A stretch of 64,000 nucleotides of DNA from positions 352,001 through 416,000 of the forward strand of contig CAWDXE010000007.1 in NCBI GenBank assembly GCA_963806185.1. Direction: 5' to 3'. Shown here one piece after another: positions 45,480-60,472 of the stretch (its first letter is position 1; the number at the start of each line of letters is the position of its first letter). The notes under the pieces were generated by a model. That model was not told the origin of the DNA. It made no database searches and saw only the letters and a program-made list of their open reading frames with translations. The DNA is from an uncultured candidate division Zixibacteria bacterium. GTDB taxonomy: Bacteria > Zixibacteria > MSB-5A5 > GN15 > FEB-12. Made by a program: the position numbers and the translations under genes.

Positions 45480-46124
45480 GGTGAGGCAATCACCCGCTAT
45501 CAGGCAGATCGCCAACCGGTGTGTGCCTTTCGGCGGCTGGCCTGGTATGCAGCGGCGGTGGCATCCGCCGATGATACGCTTATGGGTCAGACCATCCGGG
45601 TGGCCCGTGAGGCCGGGGTGGAGCGGGCGGCACTGTACGAAATCGTGCTACAGTCCTATCTGTTTGTCGGCTTTCCGCGCATGTTGATTGCCGCCGAGCA
45701 TCTGGATTCCGTTTGGCCATCCGATGCCGTCATGCCGGGCGGAGATTATGATCCGCACGATTCGCTGGCGAAGCGTCGGGTGCGGGGTGAGGAAATGTGC
45801 CGGCGGGTCTACGCCGGTTCTTACCAGTTGTTGAGAGCGAGGGTGCAGTCGTTTGCTCCGCAGATCTGGGCGTGGATGATCGAGGAAGGGTACGGCAAAG
45901 TGCTGTCCCGGCCGCAGCTTGACGCGGCCACGCGCGAGCTTTGTACGGTGGCGGTCCTGATGGTTGATCTCATGCCGAGGCAACTGCATTCGCACATGCG
46001 GGGAGCATTGAATGTCGGGGCGACGGAAGAAAACCTGCGCACGGTGGTAGAAGACTTAAAGCCGGCGACAGCCGACGGGTATCGCACGGCCATGGACATA
46101 TTGGCCCGATTGGGGCGCACCTGA
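45450..46124 (+). CDS. Carboxymuconolactone decarboxylase (CMD/AhpD-like) family protein
   Basis: EIVLQSYLFVGFP, YGKVLSRPQLDAATRELCTVAVL, QLHSHMRGALNVGA. Confidence 0.85.
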   Translation: MSSGFDVLQFGEAITRYQADRQPVCAFRRLAWYAAAVASADDTLMGQTIRVAREAGVERAALYEIVLQSYLFVGFPRMLIAAEHLDSVWPSDAVMPGGDYDPHDSLAKRRVRGEEMCRRVYAGSYQLLRARVQSFAPQIWAWMIEEGYGKVLSRPQLDAATRELCTVAVLMVDLMPRQLHSHMRGALNVGATEENLRTVVEDLKPATADGYRTAMDILARLGRT

Positions 46125-49100
46125 TGCGCGTCTGGAAAATCATTCTGCTGAGTTTTCTGGGGTTGACGCTGGTCATCTCGGCGGTGGCCTATGTCTACCT
46201 GTTCAAGCAGAATGGTCTTGAGCGGATAGTCGCCGGACAGGTCAACAAACTGCTCGGTGCGACCGGACCGGTCAAAGTGGAGATCGGGCATATCGAGGGG
46301 GACGTCTTCCACGGCATCTCACTTCATGACGTTACGTTGAGCTGGGCAGATTCCGCCAATGCGTTTCCGATTGCCCGGGTGCGCCATCTGGGAGTGGGGT
46401 ATTCGTTCGCCAATATCTGGAACGAGAAATGGGTGCTGGCGCATCTGGCTGTCGATAGCGCTGTCATCCTGCTAAGAGTGGACAGCGCCGGGAATGTCTA
46501 TCCGCACCTGGCAAAGAAGGCGCCCGACGGTGGTCCGGGTCAGCCGAGAGAACTCCCCTACATGGCGATTAATTCGCTTCTACTGAGCAATCTCACGCTG
46601 GTGGTCGAGCGGCCGCACGACACACTGGTGATTGACAGCCTGTCGGCGGTGGCCTCGGTGCAGATAGAGGGTAACACGTATTCGATCAACTTACAGCAAT
46701 TGTCGCTGGTATCGCCCCTGTTGCCCCAGCGATTGACCAATCTGTCGGCGCAAATCACCTACGCGGGCAAACAAATCACCGTCAAGAATCTGGCCCTGCA
46801 GTCGGGTGCGACGGCCATCAAGGCTGACGGCATCTTCAATCTTGGCGCACGAAGCGGTCATGTGGAAACATCCTTGCGCGGAATCGACCTCTCCCAGCTC
46901 AAGCAGTATGGCGGTCCTTCGTTATCCGGAACGGTAAATTTGACTGGCTCTCTCGACCTCGATTCGACGGGTCTGGGCGGCGAAGCCACGCTGGCGGGGA
47001 GCCTGCAGATTGCGTCGTTTGACAATCTGTATACGAAATTTCGCCTCGGCTTTGCCAGCCGGCGGCTGGAGATGGACACGTTGTACGGGTCGGTGCTGGG
47101 CGGGTGCCTGGTTGACGGCCGCGGGCAAATTGATTTCAGCGGGCCGATGGAGAAATACGGACTGCAGGCGAAGATCAGCAATTTCAATCTCGAGCATCTG
47201 GTGCACAATAGTTTCATGTCGAATCTGAATGGAAACTTCACGCTGGCCGGCGAATCATTCCGCACGAAGACGCTGAAGTTAAATCTCTCGACCGAATTGT
47301 ACGAATCATCCTTCGATCAATATCCCATCCAAGCGGCGGCGGGCGACCTGCTCATTACCGCCGATTCGATCAGTTTCCTTGATGCCTTCGAAGTCAGCTA
47401 TTACGAGAATCACTTTACGGCGACGGGCCGGATCGATTACCGGAATGGCATCGCGCTGGCAGTCGACGCCGACCTGCCGCGATTGTCGTATTACCAGGAT
47501 ATGTATTTCATCAAGCGACCGGCGGGACGACTGCGGGCCAACGTGCACTTCGTCGGAGAGACGAAAGATCCCGATCTGGTCGCCACAGCGTCGTCGGACT
47601 CACTCTGGATCAACGACATCTTCACGACGAACGCAGACGCGAGCTTGTCGATCGAACATTTCTTCAAGAATCGGAATGGGACAGTGAACGTTCGTTTCCT
47701 GAACGGCGCGGCGTGGGGGATACCGTACGATACGATGTCGTCGAGCTTTGCCGTCGACACCGGTAACGTGCAACTCGATACCGTGTTCGTGCACGGCGCG
47801 TACGGGGCGGTGTCGGCCAACGGCGACGTCGCGATTGGCGGCGACACCATTCAGGCGCGGCTCGATTCTGTCTGGGTGACGTTGTTCGACCGCAAGTTTG
47901 TCAATATGGCGCCGGTGACATTTGGACTGGATGACTCATCGCTCATCCTTCAGAATGTGGAGATCGGCGCGCAGGGATCAAAATACTCAACGCGCGGTAA
48001 GGCTGGGTACGACGGTTCGCTCGGGCTGACACTCGAAGCCCGGCACATCCTGATGTCACCCTGGCTGCACATGGCCAAGGAGGCGGTCGACTACGACGGC
48101 GACCTGTCGTGCCGCATCGGCGTTGCGGGGACGATGTCGGCGCCGAAGATCAGTGTCCAGGCGGAGGTGGACTCGCTTACCTTCAAGGAACTGGAACTGG
48201 GCAATTTGACGATTCTGGCTCATTATCAGGACCGGATGATGCGGATCGACAGCATGGTCGTGCTTTCCGATCCGGGGATTTATCGGGTAGACGGCACGTT
48301 CCATACCGATCTGTCGTTTGGCAACGGCGTCGTGGAACGACTGCCGAACGAGCCGATGGATTTGCACCTCGTCGCGACCGACAGCCGGTTTGACCTGGTG
48401 AGTCTCCTGCTGCCGTCGGTGGAGGATATGCAGGGGAAGCTCACCTCGGACGTCCGACTGTCCGGCACGCCGCGCGAGCCGCATCTCGAGGGACAGGCGC
48501 TGCTCAAGGAAGGCCGGCTCAAATACTTCGATATAGCCGACACCGTGTTTACCGACTCGGCGCTCGTCACCATGCACGACAATCAGATCGTTATCTCCAA
48601 GGTGGAGGTGTGGGTCAAAGACAAACATCGGCGCGAGGGTAAGAGCTACGCATATATCGAGGGTGCGCTGACGGTCAAGACGCTGGACAGTCTGTATTAC
48701 GATGTCGATGTGAGTCTGCCGAAGGAATTTCCGTTCAATTACGAACTGGAGGACATAAGCGGCGCGGCCGAGGGTGATCTGCATATCGAGGGGATGACGC
48801 CGCCGACGGTGTCAGGGGATTTGCTGGTGACCTCGGCCCGGTACGAAGTGGAATTTGCCAAGGTGAACGAGGGGTCGCCGATCATGTCGCTGTTGTTCGC
48901 CGACAAGAGCTGGGATCTCAATCTGAATATCGATATTCTGTCCAACTACTGGATTAAGAACGAGGATATCGACGCCGAGTTTGCCGGATCGATCAATATG
49001 GTACGCGAGAACGGCACCTACCGATTTGCCGGCGAGATGGAAATTCTGCGCGGGAAGGGCTTTTTGTTCGACAAGACATTTCGTCTCGAGCCGGACAGCC

Positions 49101-49666
49101 GGGTAATCTTCGAAGATATCGAACAACTTAATCCACGGCTGGACATTATCGCGTACACGCGGGTGCCGGGGGCGCGCCGCACCGACAACACGCCGACCGA
49201 AGAACTCGAATTGGGCGTGCATGTCACGGGGACACTCGAACTGCCGGAGATCAATCCGGTTGAGGGGTCGTCGTTCAGCCAGGAGGACATCCTGCCGCTG
49301 ATCGTGGCGAATTACTACTCATCAGACACGGCGACCGCGCGAAGCGGCATCGAGCAACGGGTGACCGACCTGGTGTCATCGCAGGTATCGCAGATCGGTA
49401 CGCGGCAGTTGAACCGGATCGGCGTGGAGACGTTTGAAATCGACCCAACGTACGGCGGGGAATTTGATCCGAAGCGAACGCAGGTCACGCTGGGCTTTTA
49501 CACGGCGCCTCGGCTTTACGTGTTTGGTCGGTCGCCGGTGGATTTCCGAAGCGGCACGCAGGAAGTTGGATTTGAGTATCGGATCGACAAGGGGCTGCTG
49601 CTGGAAGGGCGGCGGGACGAACTGGAATTGTACCACGTCAACCTGCGGTGGCACCTGGAGTTCTGA
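46124..49666 (+). CDS. tamB: Translocation/assembly module TamB-like protein
   Basis: N-terminal TM anchor, long beta-rich body, repeated G(T/E)..P.. motifs, directly upstream of an Omp85 gene. Confidence 0.8.
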   Translation: MRVWKIILLSFLGLTLVISAVAYVYLFKQNGLERIVAGQVNKLLGATGPVKVEIGHIEGDVFHGISLHDVTLSWADSANAFPIARVRHLGVGYSFANIWNEKWVLAHLAVDSAVILLRVDSAGNVYPHLAKKAPDGGPGQPRELPYMAINSLLLSNLTLVVERPHDTLVIDSLSAVASVQIEGNTYSINLQQLSLVSPLLPQRLTNLSAQITYAGKQITVKNLALQSGATAIKADGIFNLGARSGHVETSLRGIDLSQLKQYGGPSLSGTVNLTGSLDLDSTGLGGEATLAGSLQIASFDNLYTKFRLGFASRRLEMDTLYGSVLGGCLVDGRGQIDFSGPMEKYGLQAKISNFNLEHLVHNSFMSNLNGNFTLAGESFRTKTLKLNLSTELYESSFDQYPIQAAAGDLLITADSISFLDAFEVSYYENHFTATGRIDYRNGIALAVDADLPRLSYYQDMYFIKRPAGRLRANVHFVGETKDPDLVATASSDSLWINDIFTTNADASLSIEHFFKNRNGTVNVRFLNGAAWGIPYDTMSSSFAVDTGNVQLDTVFVHGAYGAVSANGDVAIGGDTIQARLDSVWVTLFDRKFVNMAPVTFGLDDSSLILQNVEIGAQGSKYSTRGKAGYDGSLGLTLEARHILMSPWLHMAKEAVDYDGDLSCRIGVAGTMSAPKISVQAEVDSLTFKELELGNLTILAHYQDRMMRIDSMVVLSDPGIYRVDGTFHTDLSFGNGVVERLPNEPMDLHLVATDSRFDLVSLLLPSVEDMQGKLTSDVRLSGTPREPHLEGQALLKEGRLKYFDIADTVFTDSALVTMHDNQIVISKVEVWVKDKHRREGKSYAYIEGALTVKTLDSLYYDVDVSLPKEFPFNYELEDISGAAEGDLHIEGMTPPTVSGDLLVTSARYEVEFAKVNEGSPIMSLLFADKSWDLNLNIDILSNYWIKNEDIDAEFAGSINMVRENGTYRFAGEMEILRGKGFLFDKTFRLEPDSRVIFEDIEQLNPRLDIIAYTRVPGARRTDNTPTEELELGVHVTGTLELPEINPVEGSSFSQEDILPLIVANYYSSDTATARSGIEQRVTDLVSSQVSQIGTRQLNRIGVETFEIDPTYGGEFDPKRTQVTLGFYTAPRLYVFGRSPVDFRSGTQEVGFEYRIDKGLLLEGRRDELELYHVNLRWHLEF

Positions 49667-51591
49667 TGAAGCATCGAATTGCACTACTCCTCGCACTGAT
49701 CTTCGCAGCGTCGATCGCCAGCGGAGCCTCGGGCCCCGATCGGGAGATGCTCAAGTGGATATCGAGGCGTCCGCCCATCAAGAAAATTGTCATCGAAGGG
49801 AATACGCATTTCACCGATGGCCAGATTAAGGGGAGGATGTACTCGAAGGAGCGGAATCTCTGGCGGGCAATCAAAGGCGACCGGCGCAGCAAGGTCCAGC
49901 GGGAGAATTTCGGGCGCGACACGCTGGAAGTACAGTATCTGTATCTGACGGCCGGATTTCTAAATGTGAAGGTGCACCATCAGTACCAGATGATCGGGAA
50001 GGATTCGTCGGCGCAGATTACGCTGACGATCATTGAGGGGCCGCAACTGTTCTACGGCGAGCGAAAGGTGACGGGAGATTATCCCGGCCAGTACGCGTTT
50101 CAGATCAACAAGATTGCGCAATCGCTCAAAGAGGGTGCGCCGATCAATCCGTTCGAAATCCGGAAGGCGGAGTTCGACATGAAAACGCACCTGGCAAACG
50201 GTGGGCATCCGTACGCGACGGTGCAGTCGCAGATCGACACGACCAGAGCGCAGGCGCGCACCCCGGTGACGTTTGTGGTATACGGCGATTCGCTGGTGCA
50301 TTTTGGCAATGTGAACATTACGGGAACGAGCAATTTCCCCGAGTACACGGCGCGGCGCGAGTTGAAAATTGCTCCGGGGGCGGTGTATCGGCGACAGGAT
50401 TTGATCGACTCGCAGCGGCGGCTGTTTGAATCGGGATATTTCTCAACGCTGCAGCTACGGCAGTCGCCGAATCCGACCAACCGGCTCGCGCCTGATTTTG
50501 AATTGCGGGTGCGCGAGCGAAAGCCGCACTACTTCAGCTTTAATACCGGTGCCGGGCAATCGGAGGTGAGGGATCTGCAATGGGACGTCGCGGGAGCATT
50601 CGGCAAGCGAAACTTGTTTGGCTCGCGACAGACCGAACTGTCGGCCAAATACTCGTTCAGCGTGGGGCGTGATTCACGACTCATCAAGCATGAATACCAG
50701 TTGAGCTACACCGAGCCGTGGCTTTTGGGCGTGCGGATGCCCCTTTCGTTGTCGGCCAAGTGGCAGCCGCCGCTCAAGCACGAGGTGCAGGATTTCAAAG
50801 TCAGTTCCTGGTCGCTGGCGGCCGAGAACGTCAAATGGTTCGGCACGAGGATGCGGACGACGCTGGGGTTTGAATACCAGTCGGTGGAAATCAGCGGCGT
50901 GGCGCCGGAGTTGGAAGAGATTTTGCGGCTGCAGGAAAAGATAGCCGTGCGCCGGCGGCTTTACGGAGAAATACGCCGGGACAGTCGCGACAATATTTTC
51001 GTGCCGCTGCGCGGGGCATTGATTACCATGTCGGCCGATTACTACGGCGGCTTTCTGGGCGGGGACGACAATTTCTACAAGCTGCAGGCGTCGTGGGCAA
51101 AATATACGGCTGTCTGGCCGGGGTGGATTTCGGCCAACCGGATAAAAATCGGATGGGCGAAGCCGTTCGGCAAATCGGCCATCGTGCCGCTCGACGAGGC
51201 GCTCTATTTGGGCGGCGCGAACAGTGTGCGCGGGTTCAAGGAGAACAGCCTGGGGCCGAAGGATCCGAATGGCGAGCCGCTGGGGGCGCGTTATCAACTC
51301 ATTTTCAACCAGGAATTCCGCTGGAAGACTCTGCCGGTGCTGGAGGCGCTGCCCATGATCGGGGGGTTGTTCGAGGAACTCCCGCTCTGGCAATCGATCT
51401 TTCTGGACGTGGGGAACGGGTTTAACTCACTCGACGACCTCCATTTCAAGGATTTTGCGTACAGTTACGGCACCGGCGTGCAGATTCTGTCACCGGCCGG
51501 GCCGATCAGGCTCGACTATGCGCGAGTCATTCCCACCGAGCGATTCGGGTTTACGGATCGCTGGCACTTTACTATATTGTACGCGTTCTAA
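49666..51591 (+). CDS. tamA: BamA/TamA (Omp85) family outer-membrane protein
   Basis: POTRA motifs (IEGNTHF, LFESGYFS), YTEPWL, LGGANSVRGF, SPAGPIRLDYA, terminal F. Confidence 0.88.
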   Translation: MKHRIALLLALIFAASIASGASGPDREMLKWISRRPPIKKIVIEGNTHFTDGQIKGRMYSKERNLWRAIKGDRRSKVQRENFGRDTLEVQYLYLTAGFLNVKVHHQYQMIGKDSSAQITLTIIEGPQLFYGERKVTGDYPGQYAFQINKIAQSLKEGAPINPFEIRKAEFDMKTHLANGGHPYATVQSQIDTTRAQARTPVTFVVYGDSLVHFGNVNITGTSNFPEYTARRELKIAPGAVYRRQDLIDSQRRLFESGYFSTLQLRQSPNPTNRLAPDFELRVRERKPHYFSFNTGAGQSEVRDLQWDVAGAFGKRNLFGSRQTELSAKYSFSVGRDSRLIKHEYQLSYTEPWLLGVRMPLSLSAKWQPPLKHEVQDFKVSSWSLAAENVKWFGTRMRTTLGFEYQSVEISGVAPELEEILRLQEKIAVRRRLYGEIRRDSRDNIFVPLRGALITMSADYYGGFLGGDDNFYKLQASWAKYTAVWPGWISANRIKIGWAKPFGKSAIVPLDEALYLGGANSVRGFKENSLGPKDPNGEPLGARYQLIFNQEFRWKTLPVLEALPMIGGLFEELPLWQSIFLDVGNGFNSLDDLHFKDFAYSYGTGVQILSPAGPIRLDYARVIPTERFGFTDRWHFTILYAF

Positions 51592-54017: not shown

Positions 54018-54696
54018 ATGCCTGAAGCAAGATTTTTGGGACACTCATGCGTGCTGTTGAACGACGGTCGGCAGCAGATCATCATTGATCCGTATATCAC
54101 GGGCAATCCGAAAGCGCCGGTTAAGGCACAGGATATCAAAGTCGATTACGTGCTGGTGACGCACGGTCACGGCGACCACCTGGGCGACGCGGTAGAGATC
54201 GCCAAGCGAAATGACGCGACTATCATCGCGAATTTTGAGTTGGCCAAGTACTGCGAACGCAAGGGGGCGAAGGTGCACGCCATGCACATCGGCGGATCTC
54301 GCCCGTTTACGTTTGGACGGGTGAAGCTGACGATTGCTCACCATGGCGGTGGGGCGGGAGAACACGCCGACATTTACACCGGGCCGCCGGTGGGGTTTTT
54401 GGTGGAAATCGACGGCAAGAGGGTATACCATTCCGGCGATACCGGGCTGTTCTACGATATGAAATTGATCGGCGAAATGAATCCGATCGACCTGGCGTTC
54501 CTGCCGATTGGTGACAACTTCACGATGGGCATTGTTGACGCGGCCAAGGCGGTGGAGTTTCTTGCGGCCGAAGACGGTTGTGCCGTTACATTATGATACA
54601 TTTCCGCTGATAGCGGCGAATGTCGATGACTTTGCCGCTCGCGTCAAGGATGCCAAGGTGGTCATACTGAAGCCGGGCGAGTCGGTTAAGTTTTAG
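54018..54696 (+). CDS. UPF0173/YtkL metal-dependent hydrolase (MBL fold), +1 frameshift near 54562
   Basis: [21 protein letters not shown]; the C-terminus [19 protein letters not shown] lies in the next frame (ORF 54508..54696). Confidence 0.88.
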
Positions 54697-57642: not shown

Positions 57643-57690
57643 AGTCCGGTATGTCACTGTCATTTGGTGACATACCGGACTATTTTTTTT
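57643..57690 (+). terminator. Strong Rho-independent terminator
   Basis: 15-bp stem AGTCCGGTATGTCAC/GTGACATACCGGACT followed by a T-run. Confidence 0.85.
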
Positions 57691-57876: not shown

Positions 57877-59811
57877 ATGACGATGATCATGGAACGTACC
57901 TCTTCAACCACGCCAGCCGAGGTCGCGCGCATAACACGCTGTGCGGTCTGCAAAATCGATCTCAAACGACGATTCACTTATATCGACGATCACACCGAAG
58001 AGCTTCTTCAGGCCACACGCGAAGAGTTGTTCGGGAAGCCGTTTGTCGACAGTCTTGATCCGACGGATCAGCCGGCGCTGAACGAATTGTTCGCCCGGTA
58101 CAGCCGGTATGAAGCGACGTTTGACGCGATACGCGTGACGCTGGTCGGCAAAGCGGGATTGCGGACGCCGGTGAAAATAATCGTGTCGATGAATTTCATC
58201 GGGGGAAGCCCGGTCAATTATCAGATCGTGATCAATCCGGAGGAGGCGAGCGCGCCGCTTGCGGGAGCGCAGGCGAATTACGATCACGAGTCGTTACTGG
58301 CGATGCTGACGACGCTGGTGCAGACCGGGGAGAATCCGGACTGGCACACGCTGGCGCCGGTTCTACGCGAATTGGCGGGTGTTCCGGCAGTGCAGGTATA
58401 CCGGGCAGTCGGAAAAGAGATCACTTGTCTGGCGAAGTCGGCGACGGCCCAGGCGCCGGTGGACCAGGGGGAGCTGATTGATTCGATCATAGCCGGGGCG
58501 GCAGCTGAAGAATTTTTGGGGAATCTGGGTGACGTGCAGGCGATGCTGCCGGACGATGAACTGCTCACGGAGATTGCGCGGGGCGACGGCGAGCGGTGGA
58601 TATTCCGTTTTCGGTTCGACGCTCATGACAACGCTCAGCGGGCGGCAGCGAAGCAGCAGGTGGACGTGGCGATCGGGATCATTCGGCGGCTGACGGCGAT
58701 TCACGGGCCGTCGGTGGCGACCGTTCTCTCCGCGCCGGACTGGACGCCGATTCTCAACTTGTTTGACCGGGCCGGTCTGGGCGCGGCGTGCGTGGCGAAA
58801 GACGGGCAGATTTCCGGGGTCAACAGGGCGTTTGCAAATTTGTTCGATCATCGTCCGCCGACCGGGTTCATCGGCGACATGGTGGCACGATTGTCGGACT
58901 GCAACTCGGCGGATACGCTCGAGTCGGTAGATACGCTGTTGCGGCTGGCGCACCAGGAAGGGACGATCGTTCATCCGGTCATGGTGGAGCTGCCCGCGGG
59001 TATTTCGGCGCGGATGCTGCTGCACCGTCAGCCGAGCCCCGACGGGGCGCCGTTCCTGTGGGTGTTGCTGGCGCCGGTGATGATCCGTGATGACAGCGGC
59101 ACACCGGCCTGCGTGGAACAGCGGTTCCTGAGCGACGCTCTGCAGGCGGTGACATCGTCAATCGAAGCGGCGGGCACGTCTACGGATAAGCTAGTGCATG
59201 AATATTGCGGCGAGTTGACGCGGGAGGGGAACTTCTACCTGACCGTGCTGGGGAATCATCTCTTGAAACTGCGCGGCATGATGGCGGATCTCGGCCAGAC
59301 CGTGGTGTTGACGGCCGAAACAGAAGAGATGCAGACATGCGACCTGAAGGTGGTGGTCGATACGGTGGTGCAGGAAGTACAGTCGTTATTCCCGGAAACG
59401 GTCATTACCACGAATTACACAGAGCTGCCGAAGATCATTACGGCGCGGAACAAGTTGACGGCGGTCATTCGGAACCTGATGCTCAACAGCGTCAAGTTCG
59501 CGCCGGGTCAGAAGGTGACGATATCAATCAGCGTACGAGCCGAAGGGGGGAAATGGCTGCTGGTGATTTCAGATGATGGAACGGGAATCCCGACCAAATA
59601 TCTGAATCGGATCAGCGAGCCGTTTTACCGCGTCCCGACGCAGAAGAGCCCGGCGATACCGGGGCATGGAACCGGTCTGGCGATGACGAGGCAGCTCATC
59701 TACGCGTCGGGCGGCGAGTTATCAGTGGCGTCGGAAGAGGGTCAGGGGACGCAGGTGACGATCACGCTGCCTCAATTGGTGCAGATCGGCGGGGGACCCG
59801 ATGAGGCCTAG
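57877..59811 (+). CDS. PAS-domain protein with HATPase_c domain and His-less DHp region
   Basis: PAS (REELFGKPF..LDP.D); N box NLMLNSVKF, G1 DDGTGIP, F box EPFYR, G2 GTGLA; no H-box His. Confidence 0.85.
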   Translation: MTMIMERTSSTTPAEVARITRCAVCKIDLKRRFTYIDDHTEELLQATREELFGKPFVDSLDPTDQPALNELFARYSRYEATFDAIRVTLVGKAGLRTPVKIIVSMNFIGGSPVNYQIVINPEEASAPLAGAQANYDHESLLAMLTTLVQTGENPDWHTLAPVLRELAGVPAVQVYRAVGKEITCLAKSATAQAPVDQGELIDSIIAGAAAEEFLGNLGDVQAMLPDDELLTEIARGDGERWIFRFRFDAHDNAQRAAAKQQVDVAIGIIRRLTAIHGPSVATVLSAPDWTPILNLFDRAGLGAACVAKDGQISGVNRAFANLFDHRPPTGFIGDMVARLSDCNSADTLESVDTLLRLAHQEGTIVHPVMVELPAGISARMLLHRQPSPDGAPFLWVLLAPVMIRDDSGTPACVEQRFLSDALQAVTSSIEAAGTSTDKLVHEYCGELTREGNFYLTVLGNHLLKLRGMMADLGQTVVLTAETEEMQTCDLKVVVDTVVQEVQSLFPETVITTNYTELPKIITARNKLTAVIRNLMLNSVKFAPGQKVTISISVRAEGGKWLLVISDDGTGIPTKYLNRISEPFYRVPTQKSPAIPGHGTGLAMTRQLIYASGGELSVASEEGQGTQVTITLPQLVQIGGGPDEA

Positions 59812-60472
59812 TCTGCGCATCCTGCTCTTGAACCAGAATCGGTATGTATCGCTTCTGATCGAGCGGGAGTTGTCGCGCGTGTTATCCGGAGTGGTGATCA
59901 CCAAGTTTGCGGACGTCCGCTCGGCGGTGGAAGAACTCTCGATCAGCCGGTATCACGCGGTGGTGGTCGATCTGGACACCGTGCAGGCGTCGTCGGCACC
60001 GGGACGTGACGACCTGATCGGCTCGGTCGAGGAAGACCTGCCTATCATACTGCTGGTATCGCCGGAGGCAAAGCCGGAGACACTGGATGTGCTGGGTGAG
60101 GTGGATATCGTGCGCAAGGAGCGGAATTTTCAGGTGCAAATCCCGGACCTGATTATCGAGGTCATCCGCCGGCGCGAAGAAGAGTTGGCACGCGGGCTTG
60201 CGCGGCCGGTCTCGGAGAACAGTGACTCACTGTTGCGGATCATCACCAATACGTTGTCGCACGAGATCAATAACCCGTTGATGACGATCCTGGGGTCGAC
60301 GGAGCTTCTGCTGGAGCGTCGGGACTTGTCGGATCGGGAGCTAATCGACAAGCTCCAGATGATTCATGACTCGGCGCAACGGATTCAGACGCGGTTGACG
60401 AATCTGGCCAATTTGTTTTATCCGAATCTTCGTAACTCCAGTTCTGGCTATCTGATAACTACTCAAAAATAG
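59801..60472 (+). CDS. Receiver + HisKA (DHp) protein with no ATPase domain
   Basis: RILLL..HAVVVD..LPIILL..VRK receiver; LSHEINNPLMTILG H box; ends after the DHp helices. Confidence 0.85.
   Translation: MRPSLRILLLNQNRYVSLLIERELSRVLSGVVITKFADVRSAVEELSISRYHAVVVDLDTVQASSAPGRDDLIGSVEEDLPIILLVSPEAKPETLDVLGEVDIVRKERNFQVQIPDLIIEVIRRREEELARGLARPVSENSDSLLRIITNTLSHEINNPLMTILGSTELLLERRDLSDRELIDKLQMIHDSAQRIQTRLTNLANLFYPNLRNSSSGYLITTQK

What the first reader, a model, noticed from the sequence alone, without database searches (positions are those of the whole stretch)
57877..60472. Apparently split histidine kinase: ATPase and phosphoacceptor His on separate, overlapping genes
Seen: the 644-aa protein has intact N, G1, F and G2 boxes, but its DHp region reads QRFLSDALQAVTSSIEAA..LVHEYCGELTREGNFYL, aligning to the usual 'SF.YSVSHDLRAPL..L.E.Y...L..EG..YL' with no H-box His. 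The overlapping next gene encodes a receiver plus a canonical H box (LSHEINNPL) but stops before any ATPase domain; its receiver keeps the Asp but has NQN where the acidic pocket lies. Inference: the pair may form a heteromeric kinase (ATPase of one phosphorylating the His of the other) or a pseudokinase/phosphotransferase pair like DivL/ChpT.
Basis: partly seen in the sequence, partly recalled or inferred. Interest (0 to 1): 0.72.

Follow-up and report, generated by a model that had tools for sequence, protein, structure and literature searches.

The report
Decaying kinase beside ATPase-less phospho-acceptor
These two overlapping genes encode a sensor kinase that has lost its phosphorylated histidine and a small histidine-bearing protein with no ATP-binding part; relatives keep or lose each gene independently, so they are likely a non-catalytic sensor plus a separate phosphate-handling adaptor rather than two halves of one enzyme.

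Summary
The 644-aa protein is PAS–GAF-like–PAS–DHp–ATPase with intact N/G1/G2 boxes but Gln423 at the H-box His. The overlapping 223-aa protein is a degenerate receiver plus an H-E-x-x-N DHp hairpin with no ATPase.

The obligate 'split kinase' reading fails the comparative test across Zixibacteria. In sister family f3 the large protein is a complete kinase (His in 11 of 12), already beside the same ATPase-less gene. In other orders the small gene stands alone. In the window's family, only 5 of 12 genomes with a fully intact ATPase keep a canonical partner H-box (3 lost the His, 3 lack the gene). 33 of 47 canonical partner H-boxes lie beside a dead ATPase, no ATPase domain or no large gene.

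Best reading (0.55): an ancestral kinase-to-receiver pair lost its phosphotransfer link. The large protein is now a likely DivL-like pseudokinase kept mainly for its first PAS domain. The small one belongs to a multi-paralog, ATPase-less DHp family, likely a phosphatase or phospho-shuttle. Facultative trans-phosphorylation in this genome is not excluded (0.2). A lineage-specific conserved His441 is unexplained.

The parts
57877..59811 (+). Large gene (644 aa, P0001): soluble His-less histidine pseudokinase, PAS1-GAF-like-PAS2-pseudoDHp-CA
57928..58242 (+). PAS1 (res ~18-122): the most conserved domain of the family (mean pairwise identity 50% in f1 vs 19-25% for the other domains); kept in truncated orthologs
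58279..58701 (+). GAF-like domain (res ~135-275); assignment from the model's secondary structure and from Atlas look-alikes, no Pfam GAF hit
58738..59082 (+). PAS2 (res ~288-402), weak PAS_8 hit below cut-off
59116..59322 (+). Pseudo-DHp helical hairpin (helices 415-442 and 449-480); no HisKA hit
59143..59145 (+). Gln423 at the H-box His position; the H+1 acid and H+4 Thr/Asn context are also not canonical (A424, S427)
59197..59199 (+). His441 (H+18, end of helix 1, hairpin tip); conserved in 45 of 59 f1 orthologs, absent in f3 and f4
59332..59778 (+). HATPase_c/CA domain with intact N (N537), G1 (D566, G568, G570) and G2 (G596, G598, G600) boxes
59801..60472 (+). Small gene (223 aa, P0002): degenerate receiver + ATPase-less DHp; overlaps the large gene by 11 nt
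59810..60190 (+). Receiver-fold domain: D57, S87, K106 kept; acidic pocket replaced (N11, Q12)
60260..60274 (+). H box H154-E155-I-N-N158: His, H+1 acid and H+4 Asn all kept
60428..60457 (+). C-terminal beta-hairpin (res 210-219) that ends the ATPase-less DHp family where a CA domain would begin
57643..57681 (+). Terminator-like 17-bp hairpin + T run after asmA; would separate the large gene from upstream transcription (pattern match only)

Best explanation
The pair is likely the remnant of an ordinary kinase-to-receiver cascade whose phosphotransfer link has been lost: the large protein lacks the H-box His and likely works as a non-catalytic PAS sensor/scaffold (DivL-like pseudokinase), and the small protein, which has the His but no ATPase, likely acts separately as a phosphatase or phospho-shuttle for a regulator encoded elsewhere. 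SHOWN: (1) the ancestral-type form in family f3 is a complete kinase followed by a canonical receiver fused to an ATPase-less DHp; (2) the His is missing in families f1 and f4; (3) there the receiver's catalytic residues have eroded, and ATPase boxes, ATPase domain, partner His and each whole gene are lost in independent combinations; (4) PAS1 of the large protein and H-E-x-x-N of the small one are the parts under strongest constraint. INFERRED: the ancestral kinase phosphorylated the partner's receiver Asp (LvrA-to-LvrB-like); the His-less core now serves for dimerisation, receiver docking or nucleotide-gated conformational switching, coupled to PAS1; the small protein homodimerises and uses His154/Asn158 to dephosphorylate, or exchange phosphate with, another response regulator. 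No input signal or downstream regulator was identified.
For: f3: His in 11 of 12, all six scored ATP-box residues in 12 of 12, and all five receiver residues of the partner in 11 of 12; the one f3 genome without the His (G026) is the one whose receiver lost an acidic residue. f1: all five receiver residues in only 2 of 53. Of 12 f1 genomes with a fully intact ATPase, 5 have a canonical partner H-box, 1 has the His in an altered motif, 3 lost the His and 3 have no partner gene. Whole-genome search found no receiver+DHp ortholog in G050 (99% complete, 4 contigs), G124 or G155. Of 47 f1 partners with a canonical H-box, 33 lie beside a dead ATPase (17), no CA domain (11) or no large gene (5). Within one genus (g38), G155 keeps the ATPase without the partner, while G048/G049/G062/G130 keep the partner without a CA domain. 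In G116/G185 the CA has dN/dS 0.12 while the partner DHp has 0.64. The small gene directly follows an S8 peptidase gene with no large gene in 8 genomes of three outgroup families, whereas the peptidase precedes the large gene in 76 genomes of this order. Three ATPase-less DHp paralogs in this genome score 44-68 bits against the partner-DHp profile, against at most 23.5 for full kinases. Motif-dead CA domains remain under purifying selection (dN/dS 0.09-0.19 in g24 and g50 pairs), so the fold is kept without catalysis. DivL precedent: PMC4211667. H+4 Asn as phosphatase residue: PMC3510030.
Against: This genome is one of only 5 of 89 f1 genomes with both an intact ATPase and a canonical partner H-box, and the genes overlap, so a local partnership is possible. 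Intact ATP boxes persist in several distant f1 lineages long after His loss (CA identity 39% among them vs 27-32% for DHp, PAS2 and GAF), which implies selection for ATP binding that this model explains only as an allosteric role. The partner's H+1 Glu, reported as needed for kinase but not phosphatase activity (PMC3510030), is nearly invariant (50 of 53 in f1), which suggests that His is still phosphorylated by some ATPase. Genomes lacking the partner still encode other ATPase-less DHp paralogs. No biochemistry exists, and kin are not independent samples.
Confidence: 0.55

Rival explanations
1. Facultative split class I kinase: in this lineage the intact ATPase of the large protein phosphorylates His154 of the small protein (or of a paralogous ATPase-less DHp protein) in a hetero four-helix bundle or transient complex, with PAS/GAF as input.
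For: Complementary anatomy, an 11-nt overlap and adjacency conserved across an order. ATP boxes are kept in distant His-less lineages. The kinase-specific H+1 Glu is kept in the partner. G083 and G202 combine an intact ATPase with a fully canonical receiver and H-box. EnvZ can be split in vitro into HisKA and HATPase parts (stated in PMC3591291). DHp-only paralogs exist in 4 of the 5 genomes checked where the partner or its His is lost (motif not recovered for G124).
Against: Only 5 of 12 intact-ATPase f1 genomes keep a canonical partner H-box, and 33 of 47 canonical H-boxes have no usable ATPase next door. The partner lacked an ATPase already when the large protein had its own His (f3), and it stands alone in outgroups. 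The two DHp hairpins are of different types (HD[IL]RAP-derived vs HEINNP).
Confidence: 0.2
2. Slow decay with little present function of the kinase core: only PAS1(-GAF) matters, the intact ATP boxes in this genome are a not-yet-lost relic, and the gene adjacency is historical.
For: 21 of 89 f1 loci and 9 of 18 f4 loci have no CA domain in the main reading frame, many reduced to PAS1-GAF; 29 more f1 loci have degenerate boxes; 5 lack the gene at the locus. Losses are scattered over the marker tree.
Against: dN/dS is well below 1 in DHp and CA in most close pairs, even where motifs are dead. Six motif residues would hardly all survive neutrally in 12 genomes whose neighbouring domains are about 30% identical.
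Confidence: 0.17
3. Relocated phospho-acceptor: the f1 proteins autophosphorylate on His441, five helical turns below the lost His.
For: His441 is present in 45 of 59 f1 DHp regions (mean DHp identity 19%) and in 12 of 12 with intact ATPase; it is followed by Glu in 24 of 59; it is absent in f3, which has the canonical His.
Against: It is also kept in 33 of 47 proteins without intact boxes (Fisher p=0.05, kin not independent). It is absent in f4, which also lacks the canonical His. It maps to the end of helix 1 at the hairpin tip, which by known kinase geometry (recalled) is out of reach of the ATP site.
Confidence: 0.08

Closest known systems
DivL (Caulobacter) histidine pseudokinase
   Same: PAS-linked DHp-CA scaffold with the H-box His replaced. 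DivL lacks kinase and phosphatase activity and uses its core to sense a phosphorylated receiver (PMC4211667, passages).
   Different: DivL has Tyr at the site; here the residue is variable (Gln in this genome) and ATP boxes range from intact to absent. No DivK/CckA-type partners are known here. Orthology with DivL was not tested and is not claimed.
PsmA (Streptomyces) histidine pseudokinase
   Same: Variable residue at the His position, no phosphatase motif, PAS domains essential for function (PMC12963549, passages).
   Different: PsmA has degenerate ATP motifs, a long disordered linker and a C-terminal receiver; this protein has intact boxes and no receiver.
'Nonenzymatic HK-like' / 'HisKA, no HATPase' proteins, including REC-(PAS)n-HisKA regulators (Galperin et al. 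2018; P2CS 'possible incomplete histidine kinase')
   Same: Input domain + HisKA with conserved His and no HATPase; proposed phosphoacceptor, phosphotransfer or phosphatase role, untested (PMC5847659, passages). 3.66% of HisKA proteins in SMART lack HATPase; 1.7% keep HE/DxxN/T (PMC3591291, passage).
   Different: Described there for archaea. Here it is a bacterial HEINNPL subfamily with a C-terminal beta-hairpin, several paralogs per genome and a traceable history next to a decaying kinase.
LvrA-LvrB cascade (Leptospira; LvrB = Rec-DHp-CA)
   Same: For an f3 ortholog pair, the best NCBIfam hits are LvrA (large, 117 bits) and LvrB positions 3-205 of 377 (small, 81 bits). An upstream kinase phosphorylates the Rec of a Rec-DHp protein (PMC13269768, abstract and passages).
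   Different: Scores are far below the cut-offs (1200, 500). The small protein has no CA domain, so it cannot autophosphorylate. In this genome the receiver is degenerate and the upstream protein has no His.
Split CheA kinases (CheA3/CheA4 of Rhodobacter; Hik36/Hik43 of Synechocystis)
   Same: ATPase and phospho-His on separate polypeptides (PMC3591291, PMC7656254; passages).
   Different: Those are class II (HPt-type acceptor) and mutually dependent. Here the acceptor is a DHp and the two genes are kept or lost independently.
ChpT / Spo0B DHp-type phosphotransferases
   Same: His-bearing DHp without kinase activity; ChpT relays phosphate between a hybrid kinase and a regulator (PMC12471899, passage).
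   Different: ChpT and Spo0B keep a vestigial CA-like domain (recalled); the small protein ends about 20 residues after the hairpin and carries an N-terminal receiver.

Membership tests
Canonical class I (HisKA) histidine kinase - large protein | HATPase_c domain with N, G1, G2 boxes | tested here: met
Canonical class I (HisKA) histidine kinase - large protein | H-box His with H+1 acid | tested here: not met
   Q423-A424; no HisKA hit
Histidine pseudokinase (DivL/PsmA-like) | DHp-CA scaffold with the His replaced, conserved across orthologs | tested here: met
   His at this column in 1 of 59 f1 and 0 of 8 f4 DHp regions; hairpin + CA fold
Histidine pseudokinase (DivL/PsmA-like) | No autokinase or phosphatase activity in vitro | not testable with these tools
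   needs biochemistry
Histidine pseudokinase (DivL/PsmA-like) | Binds a phosphorylated receiver (DivL proper) | not testable with these tools
   no cognate regulator identified
Obligate split histidine kinase | ATPase without His and His without ATPase on separate genes | tested here: met
Obligate split histidine kinase | Mutual dependence: intact ATPase and partner His co-retained across genomes | tested here: not met
   5 of 12 intact ATPases have a canonical partner H-box; 5 of 47 canonical H-boxes have a fully intact ATPase beside them
Obligate split histidine kinase | Origin by fission of one kinase | tested here: not met
   the large protein's own DHp is kept and had its own His in f3; the small gene stands alone in outgroups
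Obligate split histidine kinase | Phosphorylation only when both proteins are mixed | not testable with these tools
   needs biochemistry
'HisKA, no HATPase' nonenzymatic HK-like proteins - small protein | HisKA domain with conserved His, no HATPase, N-terminal input domain | tested here: met
'HisKA, no HATPase' nonenzymatic HK-like proteins - small protein | Phosphatase motif H-E/D-x-x-T/N | tested here: met
   46 of 53 f1, 12 of 12 f3, 5 of 5 f4 proteins aligned
Phosphorylatable response regulator - small protein | Acidic pocket + Asp + Ser/Thr + Lys | tested here: not met
   N11, Q12 replace the acids; all five residues in 2 of 53 f1 vs 11 of 12 f3
LvrA/LvrB | NCBIfam cut-off; Rec-DHp-CA architecture of LvrB | tested here: not met
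   117 vs 1200 and 81 vs 500 bits for an f3 pair; no NCBIfam hit for P0002; no CA
ChpT/Spo0B | DHp followed by a vestigial CA-like domain (recalled) | tested here: not met
   protein ends 70 residues after the His; model shows only a beta-hairpin

The most novel reading that the evidence does not exclude
A native, evolutionarily assembled split class I kinase: after losing its own His, a PAS-GAF-PAS sensor kinase was repurposed as a trans-acting ATPase that phosphorylates members of a pre-existing family of ATPase-less DHp proteins (its overlapping neighbour here, an unlinked GAF-DHp paralog where the neighbour is lost). That would give the uncharacterised 'HisKA, no HATPase' proteins a phosphate source and a testable two-protein reconstitution.
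Probability: 0.2. Interest if true: 0.72.

Novelty: new variant of a known kind. Interest (0 to 1): 0.4.

Why it matters
His-less pseudokinases and ATPase-less HisKA proteins are both known architectures and are common (PMC3591291, PMC5847659, bioRxiv 10.64898/2026.02.27.708494), so the pair is not a new kind of system. Its value lies in the graded series within one bacterial order: complete kinase + canonical receiver (f3), His-less with intact ATPase, dead ATPase, PAS-GAF stub, gene loss. That is a natural experiment on how a kinase is decommissioned. It also offers small soluble proteins for testing what ATPase-less DHp proteins do, which PMC5847659 lists as unstudied for the REC-containing class. 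If trans-phosphorylation were shown, it would be a native split HisKA/HATPase kinase; my searches for one surfaced only CheA-type natural cases and a prediction for class I.

Tried and rejected
Complex prediction (large DHp-CA 405-636 with small DHp 125-223, both as alignments): score 0.25 against a mark of 0.32, no verdict; not used for or against binding.

Sequencing runs: no RNA holder listed; six DNA runs with small shares. Four were laid; pieces are short and none spans the H-box position with a near-identical contig, so they were not used.

Assembly error or local frameshift: rejected by the orthologs and by the absence of a CA in any frame after the small gene.

'GNHL' His461 as alternative acceptor: rejected; that column is not among those at least 50% conserved in f1.

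Promoter scan: one sigma-70-like site upstream, no more than chance (2 found, 2.2 expected).

PAS1 search among shorter proteins gave one hit only; no paralog of PAS1 in the genome beyond a weak generic PAS match. Atlas look-alikes of the N-terminal part are generic PAS/GAF proteins. No ligand could be inferred.

Earlier findings: three look-ups returned nothing.

Papers: no Zixibacteria paper on this locus among the 5 listed (listing only). The review PMC12471899 has no passage on split kinases.

The marker tree has a weak backbone, and one tip (G175) carried a wrong default label (it has no CA). It was used only to show that states are scattered.
Full report
OBSERVATION. Two + strand ORFs, 57877-59811 (644 aa) and 59801-60472 (223 aa), overlap by 11 nt between asmA and yicC-gmk-topA. 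The large protein has Pfam PAS and HATPase_c hits but no HisKA; the small one has HisKA only. AlphaFold with a 29-row alignment gives PAS (23-121), a GAF-like domain, a second PAS, a helical hairpin (415-442, 449-480) and a CA domain (mean pLDDT 78); its Foldseek hits are PAS-linked kinases, phytochromes and HK853. The small protein folds as receiver + hairpin + terminal beta-hairpin (pLDDT 84). ATP-box residues N537, D566, G568, G570, G598 and G600 are present; the His position is Q423. In the small protein D57, S87 and K106 remain, the acidic pocket reads N11-Q12, and the H box is H154-E-I-N-N158.

RELATIVES. Named loci with the small gene are mostly Zixibacteria records. In 250 genomes of the phylum, the small-protein profile matched at E<=1e-30 in 52 of 94 genomes of the own family (f1), 12 of 13 of f3 and 11 genomes of other orders. 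The large-protein profile matched 85 of 94 f1, 12 of 13 f3 and 26 of 28 f4 genomes; outside the order only generic DHp-CA matches appeared. I fetched loci for 89 f1 (own genome included), 12 f3, 18 f4 and 11 outgroup genomes, chosen because one of the profiles hit, so this is not a random sample. The 76 kinase cores long enough to place form one clade (support 0.92) apart from 22 other kinases of this genome, with f3 sister to f1+f4.

ANCESTRAL STATE. In f3 the large protein is a complete kinase: His in 11 of 12 (AHD[IL]RAPL type) and all six ATP-box residues in 12 of 12. It is followed by the same ATPase-less small gene, whose receiver has all five catalytic residues in 11 of 12. The exception, G026, lost both the kinase His and a receiver acid. 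In f1 the His column holds His in 1 of 59 proteins (G153, whose CA is degenerate) and in f4 in 0 of 8; all five receiver residues survive in 2 of 53 f1 partners. So the partner lacked an ATPase before the kinase lost its His, and receiver decay follows His loss. I infer that the original link was kinase His to partner Asp. Best NCBIfam matches of an f3 pair are LvrA and the Rec-DHp part of LvrB, far below cut-off; LvrA phosphorylates the Rec of LvrB (PMC13269768, abstract and passages). In 8 genomes of three outgroup families the small gene directly follows an S8 peptidase gene with no large gene. In this order the peptidase precedes the large gene in 48 f1, 11 f3 and 17 f4 loci. Insertion of the kinase gene in front of an older small gene is the simpler reading (inference).

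CO-RETENTION TEST. f1, 89 genomes (with two small-gene calls corrected: G236 has an H box but is cut by a contig end, G239 is receiver-only). ATPase fully intact in 12: canonical partner H-box 5 (G000, G009, G047, G083, G202), His in an altered motif 1 (G116), His lost 3 (G146, G185, G199), gene absent 3 (G050, G124, G155; no ortholog elsewhere in those genomes). Partly intact in 17 (8 with H-box, 9 without the gene). Degenerate in 29 (17 H-box, 4 lost, 8 absent). No CA in the main frame in 21 (11 H-box, 8 absent, 2 unknown; G187 and G099 carry the CA in a second frame, with intact boxes in G187). Large gene absent at the locus in 5 (all H-box); cut by a contig end in 5. Thus 33 of 47 canonical H-boxes have no usable ATPase next door. 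In f4 all 18 keep the H-box, while the CA is intact in 3, degenerate in 6 and absent in 9. Gains and losses are scattered within genera (g37, g10, g38) and over a yicC-gmk-topA tree with a weak backbone. Related genomes are not independent, so I give no test statistic. An obligate split kinase predicts co-retention and is not supported.

WHAT IS CONSERVED. In f1, mean pairwise identity is PAS1 50%, GAF 24%, PAS2 25%, DHp 19%, CA 24%; for the partner, receiver 25% and DHp 45%. Many orthologs are cut down to PAS1-GAF. dN/dS in close pairs is below 1 for all domains, including motif-dead CA domains (0.09-0.19); synonymous sites are saturated in many pairs. Among the nine intact proteins compared the CA is 39% identical, more than its neighbours, so ATP binding seems selected there. 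Yet in G116/G185 the CA has dN/dS 0.12 while the partner DHp has 0.64. His441 is kept in 45 of 59 f1 proteins and in all 12 intact ones, but also in 33 of 47 others; it is absent from f3 and f4. It lies 18 residues after the lost His, at the end of helix 1, matching the Asn 18 residues after the His of HK853. It is unexplained; a docking or structural role seems more likely than a relocated acceptor.

THE SMALL PROTEIN'S FAMILY. The genome has 35 HisKA matches, 40 HATPase_c, 64 receiver and 1 Hpt. Three other proteins (GAF-DHp 258 aa, GAF-DHp 304 aa, DHp-only 125 aa) end 72-87 residues after the His and are the closest matches to the partner's DHp (44-68 bits vs at most 23.5 for full kinases). 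An HDOD-type protein (domain name recalled) with a DHp-like tail is a more distant fifth. Among distant loci, 24 of 57 complete proteins end within 130 residues of the His. A search of 1.84 billion representatives with the DHp gave 267 hits, the top-ranked ones ending soon after the match. Atlas look-alikes are 210-260 aa HisKA-only clusters, commonest in Acidobacteriota. The class is described: 'HisKA, no HATPase' proteins with a proposed phosphoacceptor or phosphatase role (PMC5847659, passages); 1556 of 42417 HisKA proteins lack HATPase and 711 keep the phosphatase motif (PMC3591291, passage). ATPase-bearing proteins without HisKA are also numerous (869,964 analysed; bioRxiv 10.64898/2026.02.27.708494, passages). 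In HisKA kinases the H+1 acid is needed for kinase and the H+4 Asn/Thr for phosphatase activity (PMC3510030, abstract and most of the Discussion). The small protein keeps both, so sequence cannot choose between phosphatase and acceptor.

MECHANISM. Best (0.55): a decommissioned cascade. The large protein is a pseudokinase whose PAS1(-GAF) carries the conserved function and whose core is a dimerisation, docking or nucleotide-gated switch, as in DivL (PMC4211667, passages) and PsmA (PMC12963549, passages). The small protein acts through His154/Asn158 on a regulator encoded elsewhere. Rivals: facultative trans-phosphorylation of the partner or a paralog (0.2); a relic kinase core (0.17); relocated His441 (0.08). 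The sequence states are shown; all activities are inferred. No supplements of any paper were read; they may hold lists of incomplete kinases that bear on novelty.

VERDICT. A real, conserved and anciently derived arrangement, built from two known kinds of incomplete kinase. It is not an obligate split kinase. New variant of a known kind; interest 0.40.

Noticed in passing
G000:C7:72277-73053, C4:23447-24361, C5:10347-10724, C7:490885-492237: Four further ATPase-less DHp proteins in this genome: two GAF-DHp (one just upstream of two receiver genes, among genes that look flagellar by recalled motifs), one DHp-only, and one with a long N-terminal HDOD-like domain (name recalled). The ~260-300 aa paralog has a match in most relatives searched.
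   Followed up: partly
window 59197-59199; f1 orthologs: His441 (H+18, hairpin tip) is conserved in 45 of 59 f1 proteins although the DHp is only 19% identical on average; it is absent in f3 and f4.
   Followed up: partly
window 57928-58242: PAS1 has near-invariant Cys22 (99% of 96 orthologs) and a G110-x-P112-x-N114-x-Q116 motif; the protein has no close paralog in the genome and the ligand is unknown.
   Followed up: partly
L122 (G026): Independent loss of the kinase His inside family f3, together with loss of a receiver acidic residue in the partner: a recent repeat of the f1/f4 transition.
   Followed up: partly
L064, L071, L092, L095, L102, L103, L105, L107, L110 (Gemmatimonadales records): Proteins with a TLHHEINNPLM H box that continue about 195-207 residues past the His; L064 matches the small protein along its whole length, so these may be relatives that keep a C-terminal domain.
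   Followed up: no
window 54018-54596: The metallo-beta-lactamase-fold ORF is 192 aa here against 225-232 aa in relatives and diverges after residue ~182; probable frameshift or assembly indel. Similar split ORFs occur elsewhere (C7:32392/32722, C1:171418/171599, C7:604153-604901).
   Followed up: no
G000:C7:450220-452604: The S8 peptidase gene that precedes the large gene in most relatives is not at the locus here; the only strong homolog lies about 40 kb away on the opposite strand.
   Followed up: partly
window 57643-57681: Unusually long (17-pair) terminator-like hairpin after asmA.
   Followed up: no
window 46124-51591: TamB-like (1180 aa) and Omp85/POTRA (647 aa) gene pair upstream of a cysteine-desulfurase-like gene and mnmA (the last two names recalled from motifs).
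   Followed up: no
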